63,999 nucleotides of DNA, filler included, from Stramenopiles sp. TOSAG23-3 (GCA_900128585.1; 16 parts of 16 records of this genome joined end to end with filler, not necessarily neighbours in it), one strand, 5' to 3'; numbered from the whole stretch's first letter, positions 2,934 through 60,790 are shown. A program made the numbers and translations. Notes: generated by a model not told the origin, from the letters alone.

Positions 2934-3314
2934 ATCAAAGTCCCTGAAAGTTTCTCCATTTTTTGGAGACTCCTGCTAGTAAATCACTTCTTCAAGCTCA
3001 TCAGAGTTACTTGAAGAATCAGACTCCACGTTATCGCCAAAGTTAAAACAGCGGCTAGATTTGTTTTTTGATTGCCTGGTTCTGTTCGACTCTTGCGATG
3101 TTGGGGGTGATAGATTATCAAAGTCCCTGAAGGTTTGTCCACGTTTTGGTGAATCCTGAGGGTAAATCACTTCTTCAAACTCATCAGAGTTACTTGGTGA
3201 ATCAGTCTCCACGGTATCACCAAAGTTCGAACAGCGGCTAGATTTTTTTTTGATTGCCTGACTATGTTCGACTCTTGCGATGGTGGGGGGGATACAATCA
3301 GATATTGGAAACAT
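2934..3314 (-). pseudogene. Orphan ORF built of 183-bp (61-codon) Ser/acidic repeats, with a premature stop
   Basis: AAATCACTTCTTCAA recurs at 2981 and 3164 (period 183). EEVIYPQDSPKRGQTFRDFD recurs as EEVIY*QESPKNGETFRDFD past the stop. A homolog lies at 60316-60480. Confidence 0.6.
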
Positions 3315-3357
3315 TTACTTTTATAATTTTGATAAAACTGGGTTTTTTTTCTTCTTT

Positions 3358-3396
3358 AAACAAAAATTGGCTGTTATTTAAGTAGTTAAAATTTAA
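3358..3396 (-). repeat. Dispersed ~43-nt motif, copy A
   Basis: Plus strand reads AAACAAAAATTGGCTGTTATTTAAGTAGTTAAAATTTAA. It lies about 44 nt upstream of the minus-strand ATG at 3314. Confidence 0.9.
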
Positions 3397-3535
3397 TCTT
3401 TCTCGTATACTGCGAACTTATCTCTACTGTTGTGATTTTAGTAATCAATATAGATTTTAGTAATCAGTATACCCATGTATAAAAAGAAAAAAGAAGGTGT
3501 CAGTTAAAGAACAATATCTCCTCCTATTGCAGATC

Positions 3536-3836
3536 CTCCCCAAGTTATGGTCAAGATTCCAATTGATTGGTCATAAAAGTACATAGCGGCATAAATGTTT
3601 TTGAGGGGCTCGTTTTCTGCGGTACTGCTCAATGAAATAATGATCGGTATTGAGTTTGATCGTTTCCTGTTCGTATACACATACTGATGTAAGTGTACCT
3701 TCTGGGAATCCTAAACGGCTAGTCCGGTCAGCGACTTCCAGGACATATTCGTATGTCTCTCCCAAGTTCTGGTCAAGATTCCAATTGATTGGTCTTAAAA
3801 GTACACAGCGGCATAAATGTTTTTGGGGGCTCGTTT
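3536..3836. repeat. Pair of ~80-bp direct repeats (3536-3616 and 3758-3836) within a degenerate minus-strand ORF cassette
   Basis: CCCAAGTT(A/C)TGGTCAAGATTCCAATTGATTGGTC(A/T)TAAAAGTACA(T/C)AGCGGCATAAATGTTTTTG...GGGGCTCGTTT occurs twice. Confidence 0.9.
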
Positions 3837-3861
3837 AGTGTCTGCATTTTTTTTTTAATTT

Positions 3862-3904
3862 AAAAACAAAAAATTGGCTGTTATTTAAGTAATTAAAATT
3901 TAGC
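3862..3904 (-). repeat. Dispersed ~43-nt motif, copy B (full length)
   Basis: AAAAACAAAAAATTGGCTGTTATTTAAGTAATTAAAATTTAGC. On the minus strand it is followed by an A-run and an ATG at 3847. Confidence 0.92.
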
Positions 3905-3946
3905 TTTCTCATGTACCGCGAAAATGAATCTGCTCCTTTTGTCCAT

Positions 3947-4046
3947 NNNNNNNNNNNNNNNNNNNNNNNNNNNNNNNNNNNNNNNNNNNNTTAATTAATT
4001 AANNNNNNNNNNNNNNNNNNNNNNNNNNNNNNNNNNNNNNNNNNNN
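3947..4046. other. Artificial contig-joining spacer (first of 15)
   Basis: N44-TTAATTAATTAA-N44, with stops in all six frames. The same spacer is at 7988-8087, 12029-12128, 16064-16163, 20099-20198, 24129-24228, 28157-28256, 32183-32282, 36201-36300, 40219-40318, 44224-44323, 48229-48328, 52225-52324, 56221-56320 and 60216-60315. Intervening contig lengths fall steadily from about 3.95 to 3.90 kb. Confidence 0.99.
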
Positions 4047-4234: not shown

Positions 4235-4262
4235 AAAAACAAGAAAAATTGGCTGTTATTTT
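4235..4262 (-). repeat. Dispersed motif, copy C (truncated)
   Basis: AAAAACAAGAAAAATTGGCTGTTATTTT, about 50 nt past the stop of the 4310-5785 gene. Confidence 0.85.
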
Positions 4263-6140: not shown

Positions 6141-6292
6141 AAATAACAGCCAATTTTCTTGTTTTTATTAAATTGGATTAAGTTTATTTTTAATCTATAG
6201 AGTCGTGGCCAATTGGATTCTTGACCAGAAATTGGGAAGGATCTGTGAACGGAGGAGATTATTGTTCTTGAACTGACACTCCCTTTTAACAC
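6141..6292 (+). repeat. Dispersed motif copy D plus a cassette homologous to 3496-3570
   Basis: AAATAACAGCCAATTTTCTTGTTTTT at 6141-6166. The reverse complement of ~6208-6280 (GTGTCAGTTCAAGAACAATAATCTCCTCC..CAGATCCTTCCCAATTTCTGGTCAAGAATCCAATTG) aligns with 3497-3567. Confidence 0.85.
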
Positions 6293-7928: not shown

Positions 7929-8702
7929 GGTAAAGGCGGTTGGCTTGTGCGGTTGTTGGTTTCAATGGATAACTATTCGAAAAGAATNNNNNNNNNNNNN
8001 NNNNNNNNNNNNNNNNNNNNNNNNNNNNNNNTTAATTAATTAANNNNNNNNNNNNNNNNNNNNNNNNNNNNNNNNNNNNNNNNNNNNAAGAAGAAGAAGA
8101 AGAGCGAGAAGAGAAGAAGAGAGAGAGAGAGATTTTAGATTTTTTTTTCAGCAGCATTCATTATTCCTTCAAAAAAATAATATTATTTCTTCATCAATAT
8201 TATAACAACAAACAAACAAAACAACAACAAACAACAATTTATTTATTTATTGGGGAAGAAGAAGATATTAATTATATAAAATAATATATTTTTATCCTTT
8301 TCCTCTATACAAAATCCGATGTATTGTATCGGTTTTCAGTTAACTTTCAAATTTTTTTAGTTTCATTGTTCACAAAATTTTCACAATAAAATAGTTTAGT
8401 TGTTGCTATAAGAAGTAATTGAATAAAATATATCGTTGAAAATTTTAAATAGAAATCGATTCTCTCCTTCCTTCCTTGACAACAGTCATTTTAATTGTGT
8501 TTGTTTACATATACGTGCGTTTGAACGACCGTTCAATTTGGTAAGGTTTCAAAGGGGAGAAATAATCGTAGAGTGAATGTATATAGCATACATACGAATT
8601 ATATAAGAAAGAAAACGTTGGCGTTCTATCCTTCGACCGACCGACCGACCGACCGAGTGCGTTCGTTTCCAATTTTTTTAGTTTAGTGTGAAATAGAGAA
8701 AA

Positions 8703-9389
8703 ATGTCAACAAGTCCAGATAGTGCTAGGAGTGGGTATAGTACCACGTCCGTGGGGAGTAGTCGTTTGGGCGTTGGGCATTTAATAGATGAGGGGTATAG
8801 GTACCCATCTAGAGTCGAGCTGGCTGGTCGGTTTACGACGACACCAGTGCACCCTATGCGTGACATCCTATGGTCCGACAATAGAAAGTGGAGGCTCTGC
8901 CTCGCTGGCACTATGCTCACCATTGTTATGGCATTTTTTCGTAATGCACCGAGAACGCTGGAGGCACGCCTCCAGTTCTTTATCAACCTGGCATTCTATA
9001 TTGCCATCCTTGGTGCCATCGTCATTTTTCTTGTAATATTTGCGCGCCTGTATAACCCGGCAGAGCAGATAATCGGTTTCTTTAAGAAAAAGTTCAACCG
9101 CCGGCGGCGGCGCTCAAAGAAGTATTCGTACGAGAGGATGAAGAGACCGGCAGGGGTAGACGATGTACAGAACACCCTTGGCCTGAGCAAGAATGCGCGC
9201 AGGTATAGACCCCAGCCGCCGTCGACGCAATACCCTGGGGACAGCGCGGTTTTGGGCGGGAAAGATCTAGCGAAGGAGAGGCAGCGGCGCCAGTTCAACC
9301 AAGAACTGGTGGAAAAAAATGAAGAGTTCCGCGGGCTTGAATTCAAAGAGGAGGAGGACACCAGCGAGGACGACATGTACTACCCTTGA
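8703..9389 (+). CDS. Hypothetical membrane protein (2 TM)
   Basis: 228-aa ORF in a GC-rich island between AT-rich flanks, with two hydrophobic segments followed by a basic stretch. Confidence 0.65.
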   Translation: MSTSPDSARSGYSTTSVGSSRLGVGHLIDEGYRYPSRVELAGRFTTTPVHPMRDILWSDNRKWRLCLAGTMLTIVMAFFRNAPRTLEARLQFFINLAFYIAILGAIVIFLVIFARLYNPAEQIIGFFKKKFNRRRRRSKKYSYERMKRPAGVDDVQNTLGLSKNARRYRPQPPSTQYPGDSAVLGGKDLAKERQRRQFNQELVEKNEEFRGLEFKEEEDTSEDDMYYP

Positions 9390-9425: not shown

Positions 9426-9451
9426 AAAACAAGAAAATTGGCTGTTATTTA
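9426..9451 (-). repeat. Dispersed motif, copy E (truncated)
   Basis: AAAACAAGAAAATTGGCTGTTATTTA, between two convergent gene ends. Confidence 0.85.
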
Positions 9452-9748
9452 TATAATTTGTTTTGTTTTTTATATAATATGCAGGACCAGACAAATGTAC
9501 GTCATGATACGTATACATGTATTATACGAAAAGTAAGTTTTTATAAGAAATATTTTAATATAAATTTTATCCACCCAATGATGAACTTTATACACTTGTT
9601 AAAACTTACGAAAATGTTTGTGTAAGAGCTTTACATGTTACGACGCATTGCGCCCGCAAGGCTCCTGCTTCTTGCGCAATGTACCCACAGTTGAAAATCA
9701 AATTGCACTGCACCTGCACCCCGTACGTACATGCTCCCGCCCGTCCCC

Positions 9749-11608
9749 TCACTTTTTGCTGTAGCGCGGTTCGGGCGAAGCTTTCCTTCCCTTTGGTGGG
9801 CTTTTCTTGACGATCGGCTTCTTGCTCCCCGGTATGTACCTTTCCGTGGTCGTGCGGTCCCATCCAAACACACTTTTCTTTGGGGATGTGCTGTCGTCCC
9901 CGTGAAGGCTGGTGGCAGACGAGTTGACTTCAATGTGCCTCACACCAGAGCTGCGCTCTGCGGCAGCAATGCTTGCACTCTTCTTCATCTTCTTCCTGGC
10001 CGTCTTCCGCTTTGCGGGGGGGGAGGGCGTGCTGGACTTGGACTCTTGCCGGCTTTCCTCGCGCGGCGTTGTTTCGGGCGGGTCCGTCGCCACTATGACC
10101 GCCTCCTTCACTTGAGCCACTAATTCCCCAATGCTTTCTTGGTCGGCCATGTCTACTACCTCCCTCCGCGCCTCCTCCACCGCGGTGTGGATGCGGCTTG
10201 GGGAGACGGGCTTCAAAAACGCACGCAAACTGGTCGGCCTCCTCGACGGGGAGTGGTCCCCCGTCTTTTTCTTGCCGTTCGTCTTCCCACGCCCATTCTT
10301 GGCAGCGGGGGCGGCGGTGCTTTCTATTAGGTGCACTGGGGCATCTTTCAGGGCTTCCAAGGCGCTGTCGATTTGCTCCAGCTTTTGCTTCACAATGCGT
10401 TCCCGGCGCATGCTCGCCAGCACGTCGTTGGACTTCAGGGTCGGCTCCCGCTTGGACTTCTCCTTGTTGACGTCGGCCGGGTCGACCAGTATGTAGGTCC
10501 CGCGGCGCTCGTCAAAGACCAGGCCCGTGGGCGCCGTATGCTCCCGCAAATCCTGGTGCTCGACCAGCTTCGTTTCCAAATCTACGAGAACCTCGCTCTC
10601 GCCCTCCTCCGGGCAATACGCGTTCGGGGCGTCGGGGACGCGGGCGGATGTGGGCTTGCCGTCGGGCGCCTCGCCGGTCTTCTGCCCGTACAGTTCGGCG
10701 TGGGCCTCTTGCCGTATCTCGTCCATCATGTCGGCCATGATGTCGTTCACCCGGTCCTCTTCCTCCTCCGTGAGAAGGACCTGCCGGCCCATCTGCGCGC
10801 TCCGCTTGTTCACGGCGTCGACCCTTGAGGGCGACGTGCCGTCGTTCTCGCTAGGGCTGACCGGGGCCGGCTTCGTCCTGCGCCTCACGGGCTCCGCCAC
10901 CTCGCCGTCCTCGTCCTCGTCCTCGCCGCCCCCCTCGCTCCCCTTCAGCTTGCTCTTGCTCTCCAAATACTTCATCTCCGCCTTCTCCAGCTCCATGTCC
11001 AGCTCTTGGATTCTCCCCAGTCCCAACTCCAACTTCTTCTTCATCTTTCGCTCCTCCTCTTCGTTTGGGTGCTCCAGGACCTGAGTGGAGATGAACTTTC
11101 TCCACCCCGCCTCCCGCTTCGCCTCCTTTTCGGCGTCCGAGTCGAAGCTGTCGGGAAAGTCGACGAGCTTGTCCCCCGCCTCATCCGTCCGGCCCCGCAC
11201 CTCCTTCACGTAGGCCTCAAGCTCGGCGCGCATCTTCGCCTGCTCGTCGTTTACTGCGTTCAAACGCTCCTCGATCTTTCCCATGCCAGATACGGGGGTC
11301 GGGGCCGACGGGACGCCCGTGATAAAGGTCGGGTCCGAGGCGACAGTCCCCTCGCCGCCCCCTCCCTCCTCCTCGGGAGCGGTGTACTTTCCCTCGTACC
11401 GCCTGTCGACCGATCCGGAATCTGGGCCTGGAACGTTTTCCCCCCACGCTTCGTTCTTCACGTGTATGGGAGCTTGCGATGCCGATTGATCGTTTCGTTT
11501 CGTCGGCCCAGCCTCTGCCCCGGAACCACCATTACCAACAACGTTGGCAAGGGACCCGCCCAGTGCGTTCACGTCTTTCAACGCCTGCCGCGGGGTCAAG
11601 CTCGCCAT
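9749..11608 (-). CDS. Coiled-coil protein resembling fibrous sheath-interacting protein 1 (FSIP1-like)
   Basis: Motifs GLGRIQELDMEL, LTEEEEDRVNDIM, NAYCPEE..LVDLETKL and LASMRRER..KLEQIDSALEAL appear in FSIP1-like order. First ATG is at 11608. Confidence 0.6.
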   Translation of the reverse strand: MASLTPRQALKDVNALGGSLANVVGNGGSGAEAGPTKRNDQSASQAPIHVKNEAWGENVPGPDSGSVDRRYEGKYTAPEEEGGGGEGTVASDPTFITGVPSAPTPVSGMGKIEERLNAVNDEQAKMRAELEAYVKEVRGRTDEAGDKLVDFPDSFDSDAEKEAKREAGWRKFISTQVLEHPNEEEERKMKKKLELGLGRIQELDMELEKAEMKYLESKSKLKGSEGGGEDEDEDGEVAEPVRRRTKPAPVSPSENDGTSPSRVDAVNKRSAQMGRQVLLTEEEEDRVNDIMADMMDEIRQEAHAELYGQKTGEAPDGKPTSARVPDAPNAYCPEEGESEVLVDLETKLVEHQDLREHTAPTGLVFDERRGTYILVDPADVNKEKSKREPTLKSNDVLASMRRERIVKQKLEQIDSALEALKDAPVHLIESTAAPAAKNGRGKTNGKKKTGDHSPSRRPTSLRAFLKPVSPSRIHTAVEEARREVVDMADQESIGELVAQVKEAVIVATDPPETTPREESRQESKSSTPSPPAKRKTARKKMKKSASIAAAERSSGVRHIEVNSSATSLHGDDSTSPKKSVFGWDRTTTERYIPGSKKPIVKKSPPKGRKASPEPRYSKK

Positions 11609-11974
11609 CCTGTTTTGAATGGGAAGGATGGATGGATAGAAGGAAGAAAAGAAACGTAACAAAAACCAATATAAACGTAATCAATGTTTTTGTAAAAAGG
11701 CAATCATTACATTAAATTAATTATACTATGTTCACTTCTTTCTCTCTTCCTTTTGAATTATCAATTGTATATTATTACAAGTGAGTTTGGTCTTCTTTTT
11801 AAGTGTCAAGAAGTGTCATTTACATATATAATAATTTTAAAATATTTAATAATAATAAAATTGTTGTTTGTTTTTTTCATTTTCTTATTCTATTTCCATG
11901 TTATTTTATTATATAATTGATTGTGCGATCACCTTCTTCTTCCTACCTCTACCGTTACATTTCAAAAATAATAA

Positions 11975-11975
<1 letters not shown>

Positions 11976-12026
<51 letters not shown>

Positions 12027-12028
12027 AA
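11976..12028 (+). repeat. (GAAA)n microsatellite at contig end
   Basis: Directly visible. Similar tracts: (TTTC)n 15987-16063, (TTC)n 16164-16240, and a TC-rich tract at ~50270-50720. Confidence 0.95.
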
Positions 12029-15985: not shown

Positions 15986-16061
<76 letters not shown>

Positions 16062-16938
16062 TCNNNNNNNNNNNNNNNNNNNNNNNNNNNNNNNNNNNNN
16101 NNNNNNNTTAATTAATTAANNNNNNNNNNNNNNNNNNNNNNNNNNNNNNNNNNNNNNNNNNNNTCTTCTTCTTTCTTCTTCTTCTTCTTCTTCTTCTTCT
16201 TCTTCTTCTTCTTCTTCTTCTTCTTCTTCTTCTTCTTCTTTTGATTGTTGGCGGCTGCTGCTTGGTGCTTCGGTTGTTCCGTTCTATTCTCTATTCTCTG
16301 ATGGATGGAATTGGTGGTGTTGGCTGTTGTTGGCTCTATACATTAAAATGCCATTATTAAGTATCGTAATGTTAACTTATCGTGCCCTACTCCTAACACT
16401 GTATATCCTATGCGACGACATCCGACATCTCATTTATTATTATCATCATCATCACTTGGATTTTATACAAAAAAAATACAAAAAGATACGAACTACGAAC
16501 CGTACCCACTCCCAACCCCAAGCACCGATCCAAAACACAACAACAACATGTGGAGTTCGAAACCGAAAGGATCGAGTAAAAGAAAGAAATGAAAAGGGAC
16601 GACGCCAACGGCATTCCTCCAGAATAGCTGTGAAGGAAGAGACACTCCAGTGTTGTCTGGGCAGTACTGCATGCACGACGCGATCACATTATTATTTTTA
16701 TTGTTGAATTACTACTATTACTTGGTGGGATTATAATAAAATCTCATCATCATCATCATATAACGCAACTCACTTTACTAAAACCGAAGGAACGCTTTTT
16801 TATTACCCACTGTGTGCACAACCTGAGTGCTTGCACATTGAGATTTTGATTTTTTGCAACTTGTTTGAGATAGTTTGGAGATATATAAGAGCAATAAACA
16901 TTTTCGTTCCCGTTTCATATTTATAAGGGTCGTTGCAC

Positions 16939-24228: not shown

Positions 24229-27200
24229 GCGTCGCCTCGAGCAATACGTAAAGTGTTGACTTCGGTGGTGGATGTAGGGGATAGAGGAAAAGGTTGTTGT
24301 GACACCGGTGCAGACGTGAATCTGATAACGCAGAGAGCGCTTGAGTTTGAGTGCGTTAAGGTGATCAGAGAACACGACATCGATGTCAAGTTATCCTTTG
24401 TAGATGGTTCGACGGCGACAGCGAAAAAGGAAATTTTCTGTGAAATAACTGACAGTAAAGGTCGAAAAAGAAGGGATTGGTTTATCAAGCAGGAAATGGA
24501 AGATGTAGATATATTATTTGGCGTCACATTCATGGATGGACGCAACACTGAATTTAATTCGGCGCTAGGACTTATAACGACATGGGATTGGACAGGCAGT
24601 CCATTCGAGCTTCGGATGGAAAGGCGGTCCAGGAATAAATCGAGGACGAAATCCAGAAAGTTACAAGCGTTGGGAAAAAGGAGAGTGAATTGTAAACAAA
24701 AAGATTTTCGACGAGTGTTGAGGGTGGCCAAGTCGGTCGACCTAGGACCTGGTTGGAACCAAATTATGCAAAACGATTTGGGCATAAATTTGACAGGACA
24801 AGCGTTGGTGACAGAAAGTGTAAAATTGCGACTGGGAATGAGGGGATTGTCAATCCCAAATCAGATCTTTAATGATGCTGATACGCCGGTTAATATTTTT
24901 TCTGTAGTGCGAACGGAGATTCCAAGTCGAGTTTTGTTGGGGAGAGTAGACCCGCAGCCGAAATTATTGCGAGATTTAAATGGGAAAGAAAACCCAGCGT
25001 GGGATGTGCAGCGCATGTTCCGCCAAATGTTAAACGAAGAAATAGCGAATTTAAACGAGGGCGTGATAGACGAACCAACGCAAGATGCACCTTCTGGAGA
25101 CGAAGGGGGAGATTTTCCCTCTGGAGACGAAGGAGATGGCGATGGGGCGGACTTGGCAGATGAGGAACTTTCGTCCGATGACGAAGACAATCTGCAGCCA
25201 AAACCAGTGCGCAGGATGGGATTGAATCCAGCAGAAGAGGACCCGCCTGTTCAGTTCAAAGACGAAGACGTCGTCGAAGACGGGAAGCATTGGAAAACGT
25301 TATTGAATCGCGATCCAACTCTAGATCCACAGTACAGAGTGGTGACAGATGAGGAATTTAATGTGATTTGGAAAGAGCTAGAGCTCGATTCGAACACAGT
25401 GTTTGAAAAGGAGATGAACGACGAGGAAAGGGGCCAACTGACAAGTGTCTTGAAGGCCTATGCGCATGTCATGGCAAAGGAGGTACAGCCGATCGACAAG
25501 AGTGTGGGGGAACATGCGATTCCACTACAACCCGGTGCAGTTCCCGTGTCGTCTTATCAATACAGCTTGCGACCTGAGAATCAGGAAAGTGTACGCGAGT
25601 TTGTAAAAACGATGTTGAAAGCGGGGTTGATTAAGAAGTGTAGTTCACCTTGGAACTCACCTCTCTTAGTGACACCCAAACCAGATGGAACGCCACGAAT
25701 TTGTTTTGATGCAAGGAAATTAAATGCGGTAACGATCAAGGATCAATACCCAGTCTCCAGTGCGCAGTTGTGTCTTCGCCGACTCAGAGGCAGTTCGCTG
25801 TTTAGCACAGGCGATATGCTCAGTGGGTTTTGGCAGATTCCGCTTCGCTTGGAAGATCAATTAAAAACGGCATTTTCGACAGAGGATGGCCAATTTTGTT
25901 TTACGGTTATGCCCTTTGGGCTGGCCAATGCGTCAAATTGTTTTTGCCGAGTGATGTCGGATATCGTGGGCGAATTAAAACATCTGTTTTGTATTTTATA
26001 TATCGATGATTTTTTGTTGAATTATCGTGAACATGTTGATGCCGAAGAAGGCAGGTCCGAATTTGCAGTACACATAGAACAAATCGAAGCAATGCTTGCG
26101 GCGCTGAGCATAGCAGGGATGTCCCTGAAGGCGACCAAGTTGCATTTGCTGAGGAGGATAGTTAAGTTTCTAGGACACTTAGTAGACAGACATGGACTCA
26201 AAATGGATCCTGAGAAAGTTGCGTCAATTGTAAATGCTAAAGTTCCGACGACGAAGCGTGGCGTACGTGCATGGATTGGGATAGTAAACTACTACCGCCA
26301 TTTTGTTAAAAATATCGGAAAGATTTTACATCCGCTGTATGAATTGCTAAAGAAAAAGGCAAAGTGGAAGTGTGAAATTCCGAATGGTTCGAGGGCGTAT
26401 AAAGCGATTCAGGTAATAAAACGTTTGCTAACGCATGAACCGATAGTGTTAAGCCACCCGGATTTTACGAAGGATTTTGAGATCCAAACGGATGGTAGTA
26501 TCGCCGGCTTGGGAGCAGTACTGGTCCAGTATGAAGACGCCAAAAACGAGAAGGGCGAAGTGATTCTAGAGGCGGACGGTAAACCCAAGCAGGTCGAAAG
26601 AGTAATTGAATACGCCAGCAAGGCACTTAACGATGCAGAACGGAATTACACGGCGAGGGAGTTAGAGGCGCTTGCCCTACTCTTTGCTTGCAGAAAGTGG
26701 CATGCGTATTTAGGACGGAAATTTACGGCAGTAGTTGACCATAAGAACCTACTCCAGTTACAAGATTATGTTAAGCACAATAGGCGTTTGGCAAGGTGGG
26801 CGACGGGGCTGAGTCCCTACGATATTGAATTGAAGTATAGAAAAGGGGAGGATCACGTGCCCCCCGATTTCCTTTCAAGGTTGCCAACGTTTACGAATGA
26901 TGGACCCGCAGAAGGTGATCCAGTAATAAGAATCGTGTCGAGAAAAATATTTAACATCCAGAGAGAGGAAAGCGTGGTACATGAACACGATCCTGGAAAT
27001 AGACGCGGAAAGAAAGTATATGTGAAACTAAATCAGACGCCGGAGATAACGAGGGAGTTGATCTATGACGCGCAGCGCGAGGATCAGGCCTGGAGACAAA
27101 TTGCCGACGATTTAGAAAAACCGGAACGATTGCGAAAACTCCACCACTCGCATCTCTATAGGTTAGATGAGGATGGTGTGTTGTTGTTTGATGGAGTGAA

Positions 27201-28156
27201 GGCGAAAGGTGATGCAGACCTGGACCCAGATATAAATAAAATCAATAATCGCATTGTGATTCCGGAAGTTTTAAGAGACGCTGTGTTGTGGCATTACCAC
27301 GATCACATCTTGCAGCAGCATCGTAGCGCTCGCGCTATGTACGAGGATATGGCTATTTTGTATTTTTGGCCAGCGATGCAGTACGATATTAAGGACTATT
27401 GCAAGTCGTGCCCAGATTGTGCAAAGGCGAAGGTACGCAAAAAGTCCAGAAGCGATCGATTGAAGAGCATGTTGAATCGGATGCCATTTTCGGTACTCTT
27501 CTTGGATCATGTAGAAATCCCGGCGAAAAATAAATGGAACTATACACATATTTTGACGATGATGTGTGGCTTTACAAAATTTTTAATTGCGGTGCCGGTA
27601 ACGAGTGTAGAAAGTGGTACTTCGTGTAAAGAAGTATTTGACCGTGTGGTGTGTGGCCTTGGTCGCCTCCCACAGATAACGGTCGTGGACAATGGTTTCG
27701 ATTCGACGGAGTGGAGGGCGTTTTGTAAGGGTATAGGATCCAGTCCGATACCAACAACCCCGTTTAACCCGAGAGCGAACCAAGTGGAACGTCCACACAG
27801 TTTCCTAAAAGCGTTAATAAAAATAAATGCAGAGGCAATGGGACAAGACGTTTGGCCGCAGCTTATTCAAGCAGAAGTGCGAGCTTACAATACGTTGAAA
27901 GGCCCAGATAAGTTAAGTCCGATGGAGGTCCTGTTTGGATTCCAACCGGATCTGCCAATAGAACGGTTACTGTTTCCAACCACGAAGTCGCTCGTAGAGA
28001 GGACACGTGAACAGTTTCACGGTTATCTTTTGGAAGAGTTGCGTCGCAACCATCGTACACAGCATTTTGATCACCTGGCTAAAGCAGACAGTCGTGTCAT
28101 GCAAGCGATTCGAGATCCGAAGAGATTCGCTCCACCATTTGGCGTGGGCGATTGGG
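24229..28156 (+). mobile_element. Ty3/gypsy LTR retrotransposon pol (protease-RT-RNase H-integrase), both ends truncated by assembly
   Basis: Protease DTGAD. RT motifs SPWNSPLL, RICFDARKLN, FTVMPFGL and LYIDD. RNase H motifs TDGS..GLGAVL, ERNY..ELE and DHKNL. Integrase H-H-CxxC (HDHILQQH..CPDC), LDHV, VDNG and NQVER. Domain order is gypsy-type. Confidence 0.95.
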
Positions 28157-38570: not shown

Positions 38571-39835
38571 CTAAACAACCTCATCTGGGTCGTCCATGTC
38601 GTCCGCACTTGCTGCAGCAGCACTAGACCCGGATCCTTCTTCGCTTCCTGTCGCCGATCCAGAACCAGTACCAGAACCAGTGCCAGAACCGGAACCCTCT
38701 TCGCTACCCGTCGCCGATCCAGAACCAGTACCAGAACCAGACCCTTCTTCCGAACCAGACCCTTCGACGGAGCCAGACCCTTCTTCGGAGCCAGACCCTT
38801 CTTCCGAACCAGAGCCTTCGACGGAGCCAGACCCTTCGACGGAGCCAGACCCTTCTTCCGAGCCAGATCCTTCTTCCGAACCAGACCCTTCTTCCGAGCC
38901 AGACCCTTCGACGGAGCCAGATCCTTCTTCGGAGCCAGATCCTTCATCTTTCTTGACAAGCTTTTTCATACCTTTCTTAGCCTTTTTCATGCTTTTCTTG
39001 GTCAGTTTCATTGATTTCTTCTTCTTCTTCGGCTTTGGTTTCTCTTCGGAGCCAGACCCTTCTTCCGAACCAGACCCTTCTTCCGAACCAGACCCTTCGA
39101 CGGAGCCAGACCCTTCTTCCGAACCAGACCCTTCTTCCGAACCAGACCCTTCTTCGGAGCCAGACCCTTCTTCCGAACCAGACCCTTCTTCCGAGCCAGA
39201 GCCTTCTACTGAACCAGACCCTTCTACTGAACCAGACCCTTCTTCCGAGCCAGACCCTTCTACGGATCCAGACCCTTCGACGGAGCCAGATCCTTCTTCC
39301 GAACCAGATCCTTCTTCGGAGCCAGACCCTTCTTCCGAGCCAGATCCTTCATCTTTCTTGACAAGCTTTTTCATACCTTTCTTAGCCTTTTTCATGCTTT
39401 TCTTGGTCAGTTTCATTTGCTAACCATTGACTTCTTCTTCTTCTTCGGCTTTGGTTTCTCTTCGGAGCCAGATCCTTCTACAGAGCCAGACCCTTCTTCC
39501 GAACCAGATCCTTCGACGGAGCCAGACCCTTCTTCCGAACCAGACCCTTCGACGGAGCCAGACCCTTCTTCCGAACCAGATCCTTCGACGGAGCCAGACC
39601 CTTCTTCCGCGCCCGTTGCTCCGGTGCTCGCGCCCGTTGCTCCGGTGCTCGCGCCTGTGGCGTCGGTTGTTTGTTCGTCTTCATCATCATTTTCTTTTGC
39701 AACCTGTCTTGCTTCTTCTTCTTTTCCGGGCCCTGACGCCAACTGCTCGCCCTTGGAGTGGCGTAATAAGCCAGCATCGCTCACAACCACAAAAGCGAGA
39801 AGCAGTATTAAAAGTGAATACAACGTTAACTTCAT
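38571..39835 (-). CDS. Secreted low-complexity repeat protein ([12 protein letters not shown] hexapeptides alternating with Lys/Met-rich blocks); frame break at 39414-39427
   Basis: Signal peptide [21 protein letters not shown], 18-bp repeat arrays, and two copies of [31 protein letters not shown]. The first copy carries 11 extra nt (ATG-GTTAGCAA-ATG). Confidence 0.8.
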
Positions 39836-40360
39836 CCTTCAATACGGTTCGATTTCTTTCCTTCGCTTTTATTGCAAACGTTCGATACTCTACCTTTTAT
39901 TTTTTCCCGTTATTGAGGTGAAGCCAAAAATTACACTCTATTCCACCGATAGACTCTTTCTACAATTGTACAAACCTCCCTCATACACCAAAGTTCCACC
40001 GGTTCAGAATTCAGAATGTACACAAGTTTCTCGCTCCCAAGGTCATAATAATTTCATTTTTTTTATTATTATTAAGAAGTACCAACCCCGCTACACCGTT
40101 TAATACTAGAGCGCTCTATTGCATCAAAAATCCTCCCCCCCCTTTTTATTGATCATGTTAACTTATAGGTCAATGACATCACCTTCCTCGTTTCATAATA
40201 CTTACTAAAATAATTTAANNNNNNNNNNNNNNNNNNNNNNNNNNNNNNNNNNNNNNNNNNNNTTAATTAATTAANNNNNNNNNNNNNNNNNNNNNNNNNN
40301 NNNNNNNNNNNNNNNNNNGGGGGGGGGGGGTTATGATAAAGATCGGTTATGCTTTGTGCT

Positions 40361-40425
40361 TAAGATATTTTAAAAACAAGAAAATTGGCTGTTATTTAAG
40401 TAATTAAATTTAGCTAAGATATTTT
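40361..40425 (-). mobile_element. Solo full-length 43-nt motif (40372-40414) flanked by the 11-bp direct repeat TAAGATATTTT
   Basis: TAAGATATTTT-AAAAACAAGAAAATTGGCTGTTATTTAAGTAATTAAATTTAGC-TAAGATATTTT, read directly from the sequence. Confidence 0.75.
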
Positions 40426-40479
40426 TATTTATTAAGACCACCCGGTCACTCTCGTTCCTCCTTTAAAGTACTACTCGCA

Positions 40480-42468
40480 TCAAACGGCAGGGCTCGAGTT
40501 GAATTTCGCACGCTCCTCAATTTCCTTCATTACTCTCAAAACCATCTCGTCGTTGTACGGTAGACTGGCCACTTGGACACCAACAGGCATTCCTTTACTC
40601 CCTTGAGTCTCTTCCATAGCGGCCTTGTCCAAAGAATCGTTCGCCGGCGTTCCCACATAAACGCCGTCTTCGTCTTCCCGTACCTGGGTCACTGGCACAA
40701 CACCACATGGCCAGTCCAGGAGATTCCACATGGTATTATAATGGAATGACGCTTGCAACTTTCGAAACCCACCATGCGTCAATGCTGGCAAGGACGATCC
40801 TGGGGATACGATTACGTCAAGCTCCAGCGCTTTGGCCATATGAACCCACTTTTCTTGGTAGCTCTTCATTTTTGCCACCAGTCCCCAGTACTCGTACGTA
40901 CTCCTCGCGCCCAAACAGCGGTTTAGCATTGCTTTTCGCGGTTCTCCCAACACGTATTTCAATACGGCCGAAATGGGTGCTCGCAGCAAGTTCGGGATAA
41001 GGCTGTACATGTATATCATTTTGTAGTTTTCAACAAACTGCTCTCCGTACAGCCCTTCCCGCATGGACCGCAGCTGCCCATCGCTAGACAAAAGCCCTGC
41101 GTACAGGCCAAAGCCCTCTGCACTGGACGGCACGGCATCGTAAATGTCAATGCATTCGTGCCCAAGGGCGTATAGGTGGTCGACGGCCTCGTGTACGGCC
41201 CTATTGCATGCCGGGGAGGACGGGAAGTATGGCGAAGATGCGAAATAGCCGATCCGTAGCCGACGTTTCCCGGTTAGGATATCCTTACGCCACGGAACTG
41301 GAGGGCGGTAAGGATCGTGGCTCCACATCATTCGTCCCTTTCGCGGCTCCAGCATCGCCCGCGTGTACAGTACAATGTCGTCGACGGACCTCGCCATGGG
41401 CCCGCTCGTTGATCTGATAGCCAGTTGCCCGTTTTGGCCATTGTATCGTGGGGCGCGCATGCCAAGTTTCGTCAGCCGAGTTGATGTCGGCTTCAACCCA
41501 CAAATCCCACAAAAGTGAGCCGGTATTCGTATCGACCCCCCGATGTCCGTGCCAATTCCAAGGGGGGATGCATGAGCGGCAATCAGGCCTCCTTCGCCTC
41601 CTGAACTTCCACCCACCGTCCGCCCGAAGTTGTGCGGGTTGAACGACCGACCAAACACGTTATTGTCGGTTTCTGGGACCATCATTGCTTGGGGGACATT
41701 AGAGCGAATGAATGGAATGGCCCCTTGCTCGTGGATGATCTGAAGGTATTTTCCGTCCTTCTCTGCGGGGGAAAAAAGGAAGGCAGGGCAACCGCACGTG
41801 GTGTCGTACCCTTCTTGGTGGAAAAGGTCCTTGATCGACACTGGAAGCCCCAACATTGGAGGCTCTTTTACCCCTTTGTTATTGGAATCGTTTCTCCAGG
41901 CATCCACCATGTCTGCCGCTTGAAGGGCTTCGATGAAACAGAATTCCGTCCCACAGTTTAAAATCTCTTGAATCCCTGCAGCCCGAGCGCAGAACGCAGT
42001 AATAATTTCCCGACAGGTCAACTCCTTCGAACGCATCTTGGCGAGCAGAGTTGTTGCGGACATATGGATGATGTCGGACTCTTTTGGGGGCCGCAAGCCG
42101 TCCAATTTAAGAATTGTCACTACACGCGCGTTGCGTTCCTTTACTTTCACCACCTTCTCTTTCGCAAGTTCCCGCAAAACGGCCCTTCGTTGCCTTGTCC
42201 GGTAATATGCCAAAACTTTGGGGAGAAGAAAAAGGACACTGAACACCCCAGCACCTACAGTGGAGGGGGCAACTGTCGCATTTTTTCGAGCACTGTACAG
42301 TTTGAATATTTTCGTCAACACGTACGACGATATCAAACTAACCGAAAAAGATGGGGCGTCGTCTCCCATGTCTACTTTCGGTGCATCAAGCACAGGGTGA
42401 GGGGACAAACGTGGGGACGCGGACGGGGGCGGCACCGCGTCTTTCATGTCCTTTGAACTTTCAGCCAT
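40480..42468 (-). CDS. Fatty-acid amide hydrolase-like amidase
   Basis: GLPVSIKD, amidase signature GGSSGGEG and GTDIGGSIRIPAHFCG, and GMPVGVQV. Likely start is MAESS at 42468. Confidence 0.92.
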   Translation of the reverse strand: MAESSKDMKDAVPPPSASPRLSPHPVLDAPKVDMGDDAPSFSVSLISSYVLTKIFKLYSARKNATVAPSTVGAGVFSVLFLLPKVLAYYRTRQRRAVLRELAKEKVVKVKERNARVVTILKLDGLRPPKESDIIHMSATTLLAKMRSKELTCREIITAFCARAAGIQEILNCGTEFCFIEALQAADMVDAWRNDSNNKGVKEPPMLGLPVSIKDLFHQEGYDTTCGCPAFLFSPAEKDGKYLQIIHEQGAIPFIRSNVPQAMMVPETDNNVFGRSFNPHNFGRTVGGSSGGEGGLIAAHASPLGIGTDIGGSIRIPAHFCGICGLKPTSTRLTKLGMRAPRYNGQNGQLAIRSTSGPMARSVDDIVLYTRAMLEPRKGRMMWSHDPYRPPVPWRKDILTGKRRLRIGYFASSPYFPSSPACNRAVHEAVDHLYALGHECIDIYDAVPSSAEGFGLYAGLLSSDGQLRSMREGLYGEQFVENYKMIYMYSLIPNLLRAPISAVLKYVLGEPRKAMLNRCLGARSTYEYWGLVAKMKSYQEKWVHMAKALELDVIVSPGSSLPALTHGGFRKLQASFHYNTMWNLLDWPCGVVPVTQVREDEDGVYVGTPANDSLDKAAMEETQGSKGMPVGVQVASLPYNDEMVLRVMKEIEERAKFNSSPAV

Positions 42469-42969
42469 TGCAAACAAATAACCTCTTTGACTCTATCTAT
42501 ATCAGGTGTAATAAAGAAAAGTACATATGATTCTAGACAACATAACACACTGTACGTAAAACGATGTTCCTTTTCTTTACATTGGCCATCTCTTATGATT
42601 TTTTTATCCTCATGGCAACGGTTTGGATTCCTCATCATTCAAAACAAAAAAATTCCAAAAATAAAAAATGAAGAAGAAGAAGGGGGGGGGGGGGGTGGTA
42701 CCCCTTGGTAGGAGGAAGGGTTTCTTCTCTTCCTCCTCCTTCTTCTAGATTATTAAGAAGAAGAAGAGATATGAGATATGATAGAAGAAATATTTATTAC
42801 CGTAATGTGTTTTGATGAGAAGATATAAAGGAGAAAAGAGAAGAGAATAAAAAGCGCGAAGCATGAAGATGAAGGTTGGATTTGAAGTAGTATCATATTT
42901 GATTTAAAATGAGAGTGTCTTAAAACATACTATATAATTTGTTTTTTCATATGATGAATAAAATTTAAT

Positions 42970-44223
42970 TTAAAATCTGAGCTGGCAGAAGAGTGCAACC
43001 CCAGCTTTTGCCCATTTCTCTGAATCAGCCAATTTAACAGCTTGATTCGTTTCACTTACAAGACTGTCTCGAAAGATTGTGGGTTCTGCGCTGGGCAACT
43101 CAACCCAGAATACGAAATTGGTACTGTGCCCGGTTGTACTCAAAAGACCTGCGCGGGTAAGCGTTTTGTACACGGGGCATCGGTAAATCTTCTCCATTGT
43201 GTATGGCCGGCTTTGAACAGGGTTGAGGTGCATTATTGGCAAAGCACTGTAGAGTTCTCGTGGGTGAGAATCCGCCAGTACATGCGTTTCCTTGCAAAAC
43301 CTTGCCCCCTCTAACTGAAGGCCCCAGATGTAACAACCATCTTCTGGCTTAGCTTCGACGTCACTGCCGTCGTCTTTAAAGTTGTCTTTCATCAAAAAGT
43401 CGTACTCGATTTGATCGATAGGCAATTGGTACTTTCTCGCAAAATTCTGCCTGACACCCGTCAAGAACGCTTGCGGGAAGAAAAATCCACTTATCCACAT
43501 GACTTTTGGCGTCCCGAACTCAACCCAATCGGTCATCATCTTTACGCGGTCCCATAATTCGTCTACCCAGGCCGACAACGGCTTGAGAGAAACGTATGCG
43601 ACACTCTCCCAGACGCCAGGGACAAGGTTGGCATAAAAACTGTTTGCAACGTCTTCCAAGTCGGTACTCATGACCTGAAGTCCTTGGACCGCCAACTGCA
43701 CTCCCTTTAAGGTCGTTTTCATTGCTCGAAGGAGGCGATTAAATTTTTCCTGTTCTTGCACCAAAACGGTGTTCATACTCTCGTTGTAAGTTATGGGGTA
43801 CAGCAACTTGGTCGCGTCGCCTTCCATGTAACCTTCATCAGGCGCAGGTAGATGATCTTCGATCTTCTTGGCAATTGCAAGAATCTGATCGCTTTGCGAC
43901 ATTCCGGCCCCGCCACTACTTCGCGGCTGCAAGGAGCGAATAGTGCCAAGCATGTTATAAGTGTCGTTCTCTGCACAAGTAATGTCTGCGTTTTTATGCA
44001 TGGAGAATACTTCTGGTGCTGGGACAATCGGTAGATTATCAATGTACTCGTTGTAGCTGCTCAAGGGGTGCTCGTCATCGACCGGCGGGCTAATGTACGT
44101 CCCACTTGTGCTAAGTTTAAACCCCTCGTCTAGAATTTCAGGCCGGTAATAACTTCGCAATATAATGTCCACTGTGCGGATATCTTTATCGTCCGTCACA
44201 CGCCCCCCGTAGTTGATTAGAGA
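42970..44223 (-). CDS. Axonemal dynein heavy chain, C-terminal fragment
   Basis: NYGGRVTDD, PEVFSMHKNADIT, WISGFFFPQAFLTG, GLQLEGARF and CPVYKT..RAGLLSTTGHSTNFV. Confidence 0.96.
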   Translation of the reverse strand, partial: SLINYGGRVTDDKDIRTVDIILRSYYRPEILDEGFKLSTSGTYISPPVDDEHPLSSYNEYIDNLPIVPAPEVFSMHKNADITCAENDTYNMLGTIRSLQPRSSGGAGMSQSDQILAIAKKIEDHLPAPDEGYMEGDATKLLYPITYNESMNTVLVQEQEKFNRLLRAMKTTLKGVQLAVQGLQVMSTDLEDVANSFYANLVPGVWESVAYVSLKPLSAWVDELWDRVKMMTDWVEFGTPKVMWISGFFFPQAFLTGVRQNFARKYQLPIDQIEYDFLMKDNFKDDGSDVEAKPEDGCYIWGLQLEGARFCKETHVLADSHPRELYSALPIMHLNPVQSRPYTMEKIYRCPVYKTLTRAGLLSTTGHSTNFVFWVELPSAEPTIFRDSLVSETNQAVKLADSEKWAKAGVALFCQLRF

Positions 44224-52056: not shown

Positions 52057-52186
52057 AGTGCAAAGGGGGCATAGGACCATGTACTACAAGTGTATTAATT
52101 GTAAGTAAAAGAGTATAGTGTGTTTGGACTTTTACGAGAGGCAGGCTTTTGTGAAGGAGAACGCTTGAGGAAAACTTTTTAATTTT

Positions 52187-52224
52187 AAACAAGAAAATTG
52201 GTTGTTATATTTAAGTAATTAAAA
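52187..52224 (-). repeat. Dispersed motif, copy G (runs into contig end)
   Basis: AAACAAGAAAATTGGTTGTTATATTTAAGTAATTAAAA, about 130 nt after the SLX1 stop. Confidence 0.85.
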
Positions 52225-60315: not shown

Positions 60316-60790
60316 ACTCATCAGAGTCACTTGGAGAATCAATCATCCCTTTATTGCCAGAACTCGAATAGCGGCTGGACTTGTGTTGTGATTGCCTGGA
60401 TCCGTACGACTCTTTTGGTGTGTTGGGGGGGGGGTAGGTTATCAGCGTCTCTGGAGTTGGGTCCAAATTCTGGAAAGCCCAGCCGGTGAAGCACTCGGTT
60501 ACACTTAGCGGAGGTAGCTGGAGAATCCCTTTCCACATCATTCCCGGAGTTCAAACAGTGGCTAATTTGTTATGGTTGCCTGGCTCTGGCTGTTATATAT
60601 ATATATTATTTACAACACAAATTGGCTTTTATTTTTTAAAATAAATTAAAATTTAGCCTATTCATATTATTAATATTATATAAATATAGATTTGAGTAAA
60701 TTAAATTTATCTTCATGTACCGCGAAAATGAATCTGCTCCTTTTGTCCATTATCGGTTTACGTTCCTTCATGTACTGCGAACAAATCTTT
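60316..60790 (-). repeat. Second copy of the contig-1 cassette: 61-codon-repeat homolog + motif copy H + upstream block
   Basis: 60316-60480 aligns with 2996-3157. A degenerate motif is at 60612-60657. CATGTACCGCGAAAATGAATCTGCTCCTTTTGTCCAT at 60714-60750 is identical to 3910-3946. Confidence 0.85.

What the first reader, a model, noticed from the sequence alone, without database searches (positions are those of the whole stretch)
40361..40425. Solo motif copy inside an 11-bp target-site-like duplication
Seen: TAAGATATTTT flanks both sides of an exact 43-nt copy, 66 nt beyond the amidase stop. Known: duplications of this length arise from staggered-cut insertion such as target-primed reverse transcription. 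This is the best evidence that the 43-mer is itself the inserted unit, and it defines its boundaries. It is very short for a mobile element and has neither terminal inverted repeats nor a poly(A) tail, ending instead in a T-run like a Pol III transcript.
Basis: partly seen in the sequence, partly recalled or inferred. Interest (0 to 1): 0.7.

Follow-up and report, generated by a model that had tools for sequence, protein, structure and literature searches.

The report
Truncated retroposon copy, polymorphic insertion
The 43-base insert with an 11-base duplication beside an amidase gene of a marine protist is a severely shortened copy of a very abundant retroposon family, and wild relatives still carry the uninterrupted site.

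Summary
The 11-nt direct repeat TAAGATATTTT (40361-71, 40415-25) around a 43-nt stretch (40372-40414) is real. The stretch is not an exact copy of anything else in the window, but it belongs to a motif family with 8 copies there.

The window is a chain of about 3.9-kb contigs of a marine eukaryote joined by N linkers. The finding lies 42 nt from a contig end.

Three results support an insertion:
- A marine-metagenome contig carries this locus with one TAAGATATTTT and no 43-mer, an empty site.
- Among 83 family copies from metagenome contigs, 23 have flanking repeats of 10 nt or more, against 3.6 expected by permutation.
- The inserts are 22 to about 335 nt long. They all share the end ...AACAGCCAATTTTCTTGTTTT and differ at the other end.

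A shared 3' end, variable 5' truncation and 10-15-nt duplications are the signature of target-primed reverse transcription. The 43-mer is therefore a 5'-truncated copy, not the whole element.

The tail ends in TTGTTTT(T) rather than poly(A), as RTE-clade LINEs and Au-like SINEs do. No reverse transcriptase partner and no Pol III-type head were found. Copies lie mostly between convergent gene ends.

Verdict: a new family of a known kind, apparently recently mobile, of moderate interest.

The parts
40361..40371 (.). Target-site duplication, left copy (TAAGATATTTT)
   Evidence: Exact 11-mer. It is the only copy present in the empty-site contig of run X6.
40372..40414 (-). Inserted 43-nt retroposon copy, 5'-truncated. 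The sense strand is the minus strand: GCTAAATTT...AACAGCCAATTTTCTTGTTTTT-3'.
   Evidence: It is absent from the X6 contig, which joins 40371 to 40433. It shares its 3' end with 83-90 family copies.
40415..40425 (.). Target-site duplication, right copy (TAAGATATTTT)
40480..42477 (-). Amidase gene (665 aa). The insertion lies in its 3' flank, and the element's sense runs the same way as the gene.
   Evidence: An RNA-library contig of run X15 covers 40418-40753 with no differences.
3355..3397 (-). Family copy: tail followed by a longer body (...TCTCGTATACTGCGAAC...) inside a cluster of retroposon fragments
3862..3946 (-). Family copy: tail plus body ...TTTCTCATGTACCGCGAAAATGAATCTG..., cut off by the contig end
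   Evidence: (cluster with L037, L042, L087 and others).
4237..4261 (-). Short (about 25-nt) family copy, 49 nt from the stop of the minus-strand Rad60-SLD gene (4310-5785)
   Evidence: Only a 5-nt flanking repeat (TATAC) is visible.
6141..6165 (+). Short (about 25-nt) family copy between two tandem minus-strand genes
   Evidence: No flanking repeat is seen.
9426..9450 (-). Short (about 25-nt) family copy between convergent ORFs 8703-9389(+) and 9749-11662(-). It abuts a short copy of the second tail family.
52186..52224 (-). Diverged family copy 130 nt past the SLX1 stop, cut off by the contig end
60610..60657 (-). Degenerate family copy
   Evidence: (family D15).

Best explanation
The 43 nt at 40372-40414 are a severely 5'-truncated copy of a non-LTR-type retroposon family of an uncultured marine flagellated eukaryote.

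Proposed mechanism (inferred): an RNA whose 3' end is ...GCUAAAUUUAAUUACUUAAAUAACAGCCAAUUUUCUUGUUUU(U) is copied into DNA at a staggered chromosomal break by target-primed reverse transcription. Synthesis starts at the RNA's 3' end and usually stops early. Copies therefore share the T-run end, vary at the other end (22 to at least about 335 nt), and are flanked by 10-15-nt target-site duplications, here TAAGATATTTT.

Shown: the duplication, the shared end with variable length, the orthologous empty site, and one nested insertion with paralogous empty sites.

Inferred: the RNA intermediate, the polarity, and the enzyme. I expect an endonuclease-plus-reverse-transcriptase LINE carrying the same tail; none was found.

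Copies accumulate in the spacers between convergent gene ends. The longer copies look like the 3' ends of mRNA-like transcripts (end of an ORF, 3' UTR, then the tail), so the tail of about 25-43 nt appears to be the part that the machinery recognises.
For: 1. Empty site. Record 17 of DNA run X6 (3741 nt) matches 40319-40371 with 2 differences and 40433-41118 with 1 difference. Between them it reads TATTTA where the window has 61 nt. That gives a single TAAGATATTTT, no 43-mer, and one T fewer in the adjoining TATTTAT. An 11-nt repeat cannot be collapsed by a 31-mer assembly (my reasoning).

2. Flanking repeats are general. Repeats of 10 nt or more occur in 16 of 79 copies within 120 nt, against 1.9 expected, and in 23 of 83 copies within 700 nt, against 3.6 expected. 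One search lists 25 rows out of 90 copies. I set 4 aside as tandem or motif-internal (L009 twice, L042, L070), which leaves 21 with repeats of 10-15 nt.

3. One constant end, one variable end. Conservation begins sharply 8-9 nt before the core. The number of other copies aligned falls with distance from the tail, for example 88, 22, 16, 16, 13, 9, 4, 2, 0 per 50-nt bin. Inserts bounded by duplications are 22-335 nt long.

4. Nested insertion. In L049 a 296-nt copy sits inside the tail of another copy with a 15-nt duplication. The rebuilt uninterrupted site matches 8 other loci across the junction.

5. Polarity. In the longer subfamilies the strand that ends in the T-run carries ORF ends (...SDEEVDYGSS...*...LCRCVLLRPINWNLDQNLGRICNRRRYCS*) followed by a 3' UTR and the tail.

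6. Abundance. There are 8 copies in 62.4 kb of window sequence. In the four runs laid, 1087 contigs matched, nearly all on the motif alone.

7. Precedent. [quoted passage not shown] A second family in these loci also ends in ...AATTTGTTTTTT (26 copies).
Against: - No reverse transcriptase or endonuclease gene was found next to any copy: none among the 79 ORFs scanned around family copies (31, 48). The only reverse transcriptase in the window is a Ty3/gypsy pol with integrase, which would not give variable 10-15-nt duplications (established knowledge).
- No whole genome is held for the window, and the contigs behind the loci could not be searched further.
- No RNA ending at the T-run has been shown. 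The runs laid are assembled contigs and cannot show RNA ends.
- The tail RNA has no significant fold (-2.1 kcal/mol, z -0.34), although stringent LINE tails often have a hairpin.
- No tRNA, 5S or 7SL head was found: Rfam gave 0 hits in 5 loci and ARAGORN gave 0 genes in 8 loci.
- Most copies (60 of 83) show no repeat of 10 nt or more. Of the 8 window copies only this one has a long duplication.
- The empty allele could in principle be a deletion between the two repeats.
Confidence: 0.75

Rival explanations
1. The motif is a conserved cis-acting signal of the host, such as a 3'-end, polyadenylation or termination element shared by convergent genes. It would be kept by selection rather than spread by insertion, and the 11-nt repeat would be incidental.
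For: Copies lie overwhelmingly where gene 3' ends face them. The left neighbour's stop faces the motif in 35 cases against 7, and the right neighbour's in 31 against 5 (binomial p about 1e-5). Of 30 copies with ORFs on both sides, 22 lie between convergent genes and none between divergent genes. Read on either strand, the motif contains ATTAAA-like or AATAA-like hexamers (sequence). It is present in contigs of RNA libraries joined to many different flanks.
Against: A signal kept by selection does not explain four observations: the 10-15-nt duplications at 6 times the chance rate, inserts of 22-335 nt sharing one end, an orthologous empty site at a locus whose gene is intact, and insertion into another copy of itself. 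The location bias is equally explained by target preference or by selection against insertions in promoters. The two ideas are not exclusive: inserted copies could later be used as signals.
Confidence: 0.08
2. The motif is the terminal inverted repeat of a small DNA transposon (MITE-like), and solo copies are broken ends.
For: Some loci show two motif copies in inverted orientation around about 300 nt or less (L049, L030/L031, L017, L051).
Against: The best case, L049, resolves into a nested insertion with a 15-nt duplication, and its rebuilt site matches 8 intact tails. Duplications vary from 10 to 15 nt instead of having a fixed length. Solo copies, including this one, have their own duplications and only one element end. 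No transposase was found among the 79 neighbouring ORFs.
Confidence: 0.05
3. The copies are made from RNA, but not by a dedicated LINE partner. Transcripts ending in the tail would be copied by another cellular or retroelement reverse transcriptase, or captured at DNA breaks during repair.
For: No partner LINE was found. The longer copies look like 3' parts of ordinary mRNA-like transcripts with ORF ends, not like a LINE or a Pol III-type SINE. One copy (L121) carries A7 after ...CTTTGT instead of the T-run.
Against: Staggered 10-15-nt duplications and a precisely conserved 3' terminus across at least four bodies and a second tail family ending in the same TTGTTTT(T) point to an enzyme that recognises this end and nicks DNA, as LINE machinery does. 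Capture at breaks does not usually make duplications (established knowledge). Only about 1.5 kb on each side of 80 loci (less for the rest) and one 62-kb window were examined, so a rare full-length LINE would easily be missed.
Confidence: 0.1
4. The 11-nt repeat is a chance match in AT-rich DNA, and the shorter allele is an unrelated deletion.
For: The flanks are AT-rich. The X6 allele also differs by one extra T. Only one contig, at depth 3.7, shows it.
Against: The permutation control gives about 1% per copy for a repeat of 11 nt or more. The deletion endpoints coincide with the repeat and element boundaries to the base. Twenty other copies show the same architecture.
Confidence: 0.02

Closest known systems
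RTE-clade LINEs and their Au-like or other RTE-related SINEs (PMC6007223: abstract, sections 12 and 18, and passages read)
   Same: The 3' end is not poly(A) but GTT-type or a T stretch; here it is ...CTTGTTTT(T), and ...AATTTGTTTTTT in a second family. Unrelated bodies share one specific 3'-terminal region. Duplications fall in the 7-15-bp range, with 10-12 commonest there and 10-15 here above my 10-nt cut-off. The first base of the duplication in element sense is T in 14 of 21 cases here, but those bases can equally be assigned to the element's T-run.
   Different: No RTE-type reverse transcriptase or endonuclease was found, no sequence similarity was tested, and no conserved 3' hairpin is predicted. 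No Pol III box A/B head was detected. The bodies carry ORF ends. Copies as short as 22-25 nt with duplications are common here.
L1-type target-primed reverse transcription products: 5'-truncated LINE copies, processed pseudogenes (recalled general knowledge; also the introduction of PMC6007223)
   Same: A constant 3' end, variable 5' truncation, duplications of variable length, AT-rich target sites, and presence/absence polymorphism.
   Different: There is no poly(A) tail, so priming on a T-rich nick by an A tail is not the general rule here. The mobilised RNAs share a specific 25-43-nt tail, which indicates 'stringent' recognition.
Leishmania SIDER1/SIDER2 retroposons (PMC2689281 and PMC2943621: search listing and first lines of the abstracts only)
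   Same: Very numerous short truncated retroposons in a protist with compact genes, lying in 3' untranslated or 3' flanking regions where they can affect mRNA fate.
   Different: SIDERs are described as extinct and degenerate. This family is nearly identical between copies and polymorphic in wild populations. The organism, sequence and size differ. No regulatory effect was tested here.
MITEs (Stowaway/Tourist-type miniature DNA transposons; recalled)
   Same: Small, very numerous, AT-rich, close to genes.
   Different: There are no terminal inverted repeats, duplications are of variable length, and only one end is constant.

Membership tests
Non-LTR retroposon inserted by target-primed reverse transcription | Flanking target-site duplications of variable length (about 7-20 bp) | tested here: met
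   The duplication is 11 nt at the finding. Repeats of 10 nt or more occur in 23 of 83 copies against 3.6 expected. After 4 ambiguous rows are set aside, 21 credible cases of 10-15 nt remain.
Non-LTR retroposon inserted by target-primed reverse transcription | Copies share the 3' end and are variably 5'-truncated | tested here: met
   The boundary at the T-run end is sharp. Alignment depth decays with distance from that end. Insert lengths are 22-335 nt.
Non-LTR retroposon inserted by target-primed reverse transcription | Empty (pre-insertion) sites carry a single copy of the duplicated sequence | tested here: met
   An orthologous empty site is present in the X6 contig. The rebuilt site of the nested L049 insertion matches 8 other loci. 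Only these two loci could be tested.
Non-LTR retroposon inserted by target-primed reverse transcription | An autonomous element encoding reverse transcriptase and endonuclease, with the same 3' tail | tested here: inconclusive
   None of the 79 ORFs near copies is such an element. The window holds only a Ty3/gypsy pol. No whole genome is available.
Non-LTR retroposon inserted by target-primed reverse transcription | An RNA intermediate with the element's 3' end | not testable with these tools
   Only assembled contigs of RNA libraries were available, and these cannot show RNA ends.
SINE (canonical) | A 5' head derived from tRNA, 5S or 7SL RNA with an internal Pol III promoter | tested here: not met
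   Rfam at E up to 1 gave 0 hits in 5 loci holding the longest copies. ARAGORN gave 0 genes in 8 loci. The true full-length 5' end is not established, so a head further upstream is not excluded.
SINE (canonical) | A 3' tail shared with a partner LINE | tested here: inconclusive
   The tail is shared by at least four different bodies, but no LINE was found.
RTE-related retroposons | A 3' terminus of (GTT)n or a T stretch, with duplications mostly 10-12 bp (PMC6007223) | tested here: met
   The terminus is ...CTTGTTTT(T). Duplications are 10-15 nt, but my search ignored repeats under 10 nt, so the mode is not known.
RTE-related retroposons | RTE-clade reverse transcriptase/AP-endonuclease ORF, and a T stretch about 10 nt upstream of the duplication | not tested
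   No reverse transcriptase was found to classify. The upstream T-stretch signature was not counted, because 21 sites in AT-rich DNA are too few.
MITE / TIR DNA transposon | Terminal inverted repeats and a duplication of fixed length | tested here: not met
   The 43-mer and the other solo inserts have no inverted termini. Duplications range from 10 to 15 nt. The apparent inverted pair in L049 is a nested insertion.

The most novel reading that the evidence does not exclude
The last 25-43 nt (...AAATAACAGCCAATTTTCTTGTTTT) form a self-sufficient, portable retroposition signal. Any transcript that ends in it is copied back into the genome, so host mRNA 3' ends become new repeat families. That would make 22-25-nt inserts with duplications among the smallest mobile units known. 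The copies would be directed to, or retained in, the spacers between convergent genes, where they act as shared 3'-end signals. The enzyme would not be a conventional LINE of a described clade.
Probability: 0.15. Interest if true: 0.7.

Novelty: new member of a known kind. Interest (0 to 1): 0.45.

Why it matters
The finding shows that an abundant, uncultured marine protist carries a retroposon family that appears recently mobile. Copies are nearly identical, and the one locus that could be checked differs between wild strains.

- The insertions are ready-made presence/absence markers for following strains in ocean metagenomes.
- The family adds a non-plant, non-animal case of retroposons that end in TTG/T-runs rather than poly(A). 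This bears on how such tails are recognised and primed.
- Many inserts of only 22-45 nt carry clear duplications. Routine repeat annotation would miss most of this family and would misread the copies as a conserved 3' motif.
- The concentration between convergent gene ends gives a concrete test: do such inserts supply or disturb 3'-end formation in a compact genome?
- Practical warning for the scan: the window is a chain of unrelated contigs, so apparent neighbourhood across the N linkers is not real.

Tried and rejected
- **Whole-genome look-up.** No genome is held for the window. The metagenome records behind five loci are not held either, so neither all genomic copies nor a partner LINE could be searched.
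- **Earlier scan notes.** None by place or by sequence.
- **Rfam and tRNA scans.** Rfam on the whole window gave 0 hits, and 0 hits on 5 loci at E up to 1. tRNA scans were also empty.
- **RNA fold of the 43-mer.** Not better than shuffles (z -0.34, 68 of 200 shuffles fold at least as well). The small hairpin I saw by eye (AACAG/CUUGUU) is not supported.
- **Viral contigs.** 15 exact matches to the 17-mer, none with the family's flanking sequence, so these are chance matches and the family is not viral.
- **Promoter idea** (inverted CCAAT box plus TATTTAA box upstream of a small ORF). Dropped, because copies lie between convergent 3' ends, 0 of 30 lie between divergent genes, and the 'upstream' arrangement in L049 is a nested insertion.
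- **Spliced-leader idea.** Dropped, because the motif is embedded in genomic DNA next to ordinary genes and carries duplications.
- **Asymmetry of RNA contigs** (long body, then motif, then contig end). Not informative. The same long-left, short-right pattern of loose ends is seen in the DNA runs, and it follows from assembly-graph branching in the repeated bodies.
- **Summed word depth on the motif** (X6 9709 against 3.7; X8 45749 against 3.7; X15 2918 against 4.9; X17 1479 against 3.1). The tool states that this is no copy number, and I use it only as 'very many contigs'. X8, X15 and X17 give no cover across the junction.
- **Protein search for longer relatives** of the ORF in the fourth body type. 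2 hits of 292-294 aa without Pfam domains and no reverse transcriptase. The Atlas gave nothing.
- **Literature.** No paper in the library holds either 17-mer. I made no search for the organism, so I do not claim that the family is undescribed under another name.
- **The other window copies.** 4237 has only a 5-nt repeat, 6141 and 9426 have none, and the rest are cut by contig ends or lie in a fragment cluster.

Full report
**What the window is.** The window contains 32 runs of exactly 44 N. They pair up as N44-TTAATTAATTAA-N44 every 4 kb or so, and the pieces between them shrink steadily from 3946 to 3895 nt. It is therefore a chain of 16 separate contigs in order of size, joined by 100-nt linkers, and not contiguous DNA. 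The finding lies in contig 40319-44223, 42 nt from its start.

The genes are eukaryotic and apparently intron-poor. They include dynein heavy chain, ATG5, Prp19-like WD40, SLX1, a Ty3/gypsy pol and an amidase. G+C per 2-kb bin ranges from 0.35 to 0.56, and the spacers I read are AT-rich (my reading). No genome is held for the window. The contig with the finding is found nearly identical in many marine metagenomes and metatranscriptomes: 20 of 24 listed runs from 11 studies hold the contig or part of it. The organism is therefore a widespread marine protist, and the dynein genes suggest that it bears flagella.

**The observation.** TAAGATATTTT occurs exactly twice in the window, at 40361-40371 and 40415-40425. 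The two copies bracket the 43 nt at 40372-40414. The amidase ORF (40480-42477, minus strand) ends 66 nt away.

The 43-mer has no second copy in the window, even with 3 mismatches allowed, so 'exact copy' is not borne out there. Its core AAAATTGGCTGTTATTT, with up to 3 mismatches, occurs 8 times against 0.28 expected. The family consensus is AAAACAAGAAAATTGGCTGTTATTT, often continued by AAGTAATTAAA(A)TTTAGC.

**More copies.** About a third of the matches are chance hits in unrelated DNA. After removing these and duplicates, 79-90 copies remain, depending on the filter.

- Conservation starts abruptly 8-9 nt to the left of the core. The A-run is 69-78 of 79 there, and beyond it composition is only T/A-rich.
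- To the right, the copies continue into at least four different repeated bodies, with 20, 11 and 8 members plus a fourth found separately. The remaining 30 or so continue into sequence shared with no other copy.
- The number of other copies that still align falls steadily with distance from the motif, for example 88, 22, 16, 16, 13, 9, 4, 2, 0 per 50 nt.

**Duplications.** I took the bases just left of the conserved edge and looked for them again to the right.

- Within 120 nt, 16 of 79 copies have a repeat of 10 nt or more. Pairing left flanks with the right flanks of other copies gives 1.9.
- Within 700 nt the figures are 23 of 83 against 3.6.
- The listing has 25 rows out of 90 copies. I set aside L009 (two rows, tandem copies), L042 (a 512-nt tandem duplication) and L070 (the repeat lies inside the motif).
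- The other 21 have repeats of 10-15 nt around inserts of 22, 25, 25, 25, 41, 42, 43, 45, 61, 62, 79, 105, 125, 134, 149, 167, 175, 198, 296, 324 and 335 nt.

All these inserts begin at the same edge and end at different points. The 60 of 83 copies without such a repeat may be older, may have shorter duplications, or may run off the fetched DNA. I did not resolve this.

**Empty sites.** I laid contigs of two DNA and two RNA runs on 40319-41118. One 3741-nt contig of DNA run X6 matches 40319-40371 with 2 differences and 40433-41118 with 1 difference. Between the two it has TATTTA where the window has 61 nt. The window reads TAAGATATTTT[43-mer]TAAGATATTTT-TATTTAT-TAAGACC. The X6 contig therefore reads TAAGATATTTT-TATTTA-TAAGACC: one copy of the repeat, no 43-mer, and one T fewer. 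It rests on a single contig at depth 3.7. The other three runs do not cover the junction.

Independently, in L049 a 296-nt copy lies inside the tail of another copy, flanked by GCAGTACATTAATTT on both sides. After removal of the insert and one repeat copy, the rebuilt sequence matches 8 other loci right across the junction, for example 94% over 71 nt. The repeats are therefore made by insertion.

**Mechanism.** One constant end, a variable other end and staggered duplications of variable length are what target-primed reverse transcription leaves behind. The constant end is the 3' end of the RNA, and the variable end is where cDNA synthesis stopped (established knowledge; the introduction of PMC6007223 was read).

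The element's sense strand is therefore the complement of the strand I searched with, and it ends ...AAATAACAGCCAATTTTCTTGTTTT(T). At the finding this is the minus strand, the same strand as the amidase.

The longer copies support this polarity. On that strand they carry the end of an ORF (...SDEEVDYGSS...AWS...*, or ...HLCRCVLLRPINWNLDQNLGRICNRRRYCS*), then about 30-120 nt, then the tail. The 43-nt copy matches the subfamily whose tail reads ...GAAGCTAAATTTAATTAC and is cut right after GAA.

The RNA intermediate and the enzyme are inferred, not shown.

**What was not found.** None of the 79 ORFs next to family copies is a reverse transcriptase or endonuclease. They are ordinary genes such as MCM7, Sec24, glutamate-cysteine ligase, dynein, prolyl-tRNA synthetase and ODAD1. 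The window's only reverse transcriptase is a Ty3/gypsy pol with integrase.

The longest copies have no tRNA, 5S or 7SL-like part, and the tail RNA does not fold better than shuffled sequence. The family therefore fails the canonical SINE test as far as I could apply it, and its partner is unknown. Only about 1.5 kb on each side of 80 loci (less for the rest) and one 62-kb window were examined, so a rare full-length element could easily be missed.

**Where copies lie**.
- The nearest ORF of 120 aa or more within 600 nt on the left faces the motif with its stop in 35 cases and with its start in 7.
- On the right the figures are 31 and 5. Both have binomial p of about 1e-5.
- Of 30 copies with ORFs on both sides within 800 nt, 22 lie between convergent genes, 8 between tandem genes and none between divergent genes.

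Whether this reflects target choice (AT- or T-rich 3' spacers) or loss of insertions in promoters cannot be told. An RNA-library contig covers 40418-40753 without a difference, so the amidase 3' end, up to the edge of the element, is present in RNA-library contigs. RNA-library contigs also join the motif to many different flanks, but these are assembled contigs and may include DNA.

**Comparison with known systems.** The closest described system is the RTE clade and its SINEs. According to PMC6007223 (abstract, sections 12 and 18, and passages read):
- plant RTE LINEs end in (GTT)n;
- Au-like SINEs share the LINE's 3' region and end in a T stretch;
- RTE duplications are 7-15 bp, most often 10-12;
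- the first base of the duplication tends to match the repeated base of the tail.

Here the tail ends in CTTGTTTT(T). A second repeat family in the same loci ends in ...ACTATATAATTTGTTTTTT (26 copies). One copy lies at about 42890-42950, about 20 nt from the dynein stop codon. Duplications are 10-15 nt, and in element sense they start with T in 14 of 21 cases, although those T's could equally belong to the tail.

Membership in the RTE group cannot be claimed without the reverse transcriptase. Leishmania SIDERs are a functional analogue, being truncated retroposons in the 3' UTRs of a protist (PMC2689281 and PMC2943621; listing and first lines of the abstracts only). They are described as extinct, whereas this family is polymorphic.

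**Verdict.** This is an insertion with a target-site duplication, most likely made through RNA. The corrections are these:
- The 43-mer is a truncated copy and not the unit.
- It is not an exact repeat within the window.
- The window itself is a chain of contigs.

The thing is a new family of a known kind. Its notable points are the T-run tail outside plants and animals, the very short copies, the concentration between convergent genes and the insertion polymorphism in wild populations. No paper in the library contains the motif. I did not search by organism.

Noticed in passing
window 3947-4046 and 15 further places about 4 kb apart: N44-TTAATTAATTAA-N44 linkers join 16 contigs that are ordered by decreasing length (3946 down to 3895 nt). 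The window is a concatenated draft assembly, so features that seem to span or neighbour across a linker are not real neighbours.
   Followed up: yes
window about 42890-42950 (+ sense) and 9451-9470; 26 copies in loci L001-L130 and the window: A second dispersed repeat ends in ...GAGAGTCTTAAAACATACTATATAATTTGTTTTTT. It has the same TTGTTTT(T) terminus as the finding's family but a different tail. Some copies continue into a body related to the fourth body type. The copy at about 42890-42950 ends about 20 nt from the dynein heavy-chain stop codon.
   Followed up: partly
window 2400-3946 (end of the first contig) and 60316-60660: A cluster of retroposon fragments: a degenerate sense copy of the first body type at about 2440-2640; two 183-nt tandem units at 2934-3294 with a paralogue at 60316-60575, encoding S/D/E-rich peptide on the minus strand; two tail copies; and duplicated pieces of the fourth body type at 3470-3840.
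   Followed up: partly
locus L041:1403-1825 (-), and the sense strand of the first and second body types: The longer copies carry the end of an ORF with repeated ...S(D/E)EEV(D/I)YGS... motifs. In L041 the ORF runs 141 codons with no Pfam hit. It may be the parent gene whose 3' end is being retroposed, or an element-encoded protein.
   Followed up: partly
locus L121, copy at 301 (+): In this copy the constant end reads ...CTTTGT followed by seven A (in element sense) instead of the usual T-run, inside a 12-nt duplication. This may come from a polyadenylated template.
   Followed up: no
window 24253-28156 (+): A Ty3/gypsy-type pol ORF (RVT_1, RNase H, integrase zinc-binding and core domains) fills almost a whole contig.
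   Followed up: no
window 38600-39650: A long array of 18-nt tandem repeats (consensus about CGAACCAGACCCTTCTTC) lies inside overlapping ORFs on both strands. It is probably a low-complexity coding repeat.
   Followed up: no
window 40319-40330, about 42670-42690, 40132-40144, and other contig ends: Intergenic G or C homopolymer runs of about 9-14 nt are frequent, often close to contig ends. The one at 40319-40330 lies within the stretch 40319-40371 that the X6 contig matches with 2 differences, so it is probably not only an artefact.
   Followed up: partly
window 11966-12028, 15986-16063, 16164-16240, 8088-8110: (AAAG)n, (CTTT)n, (CTT)n and (AAG)n microsatellites sit at contig ends and probably caused the assembly breaks.
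   Followed up: no
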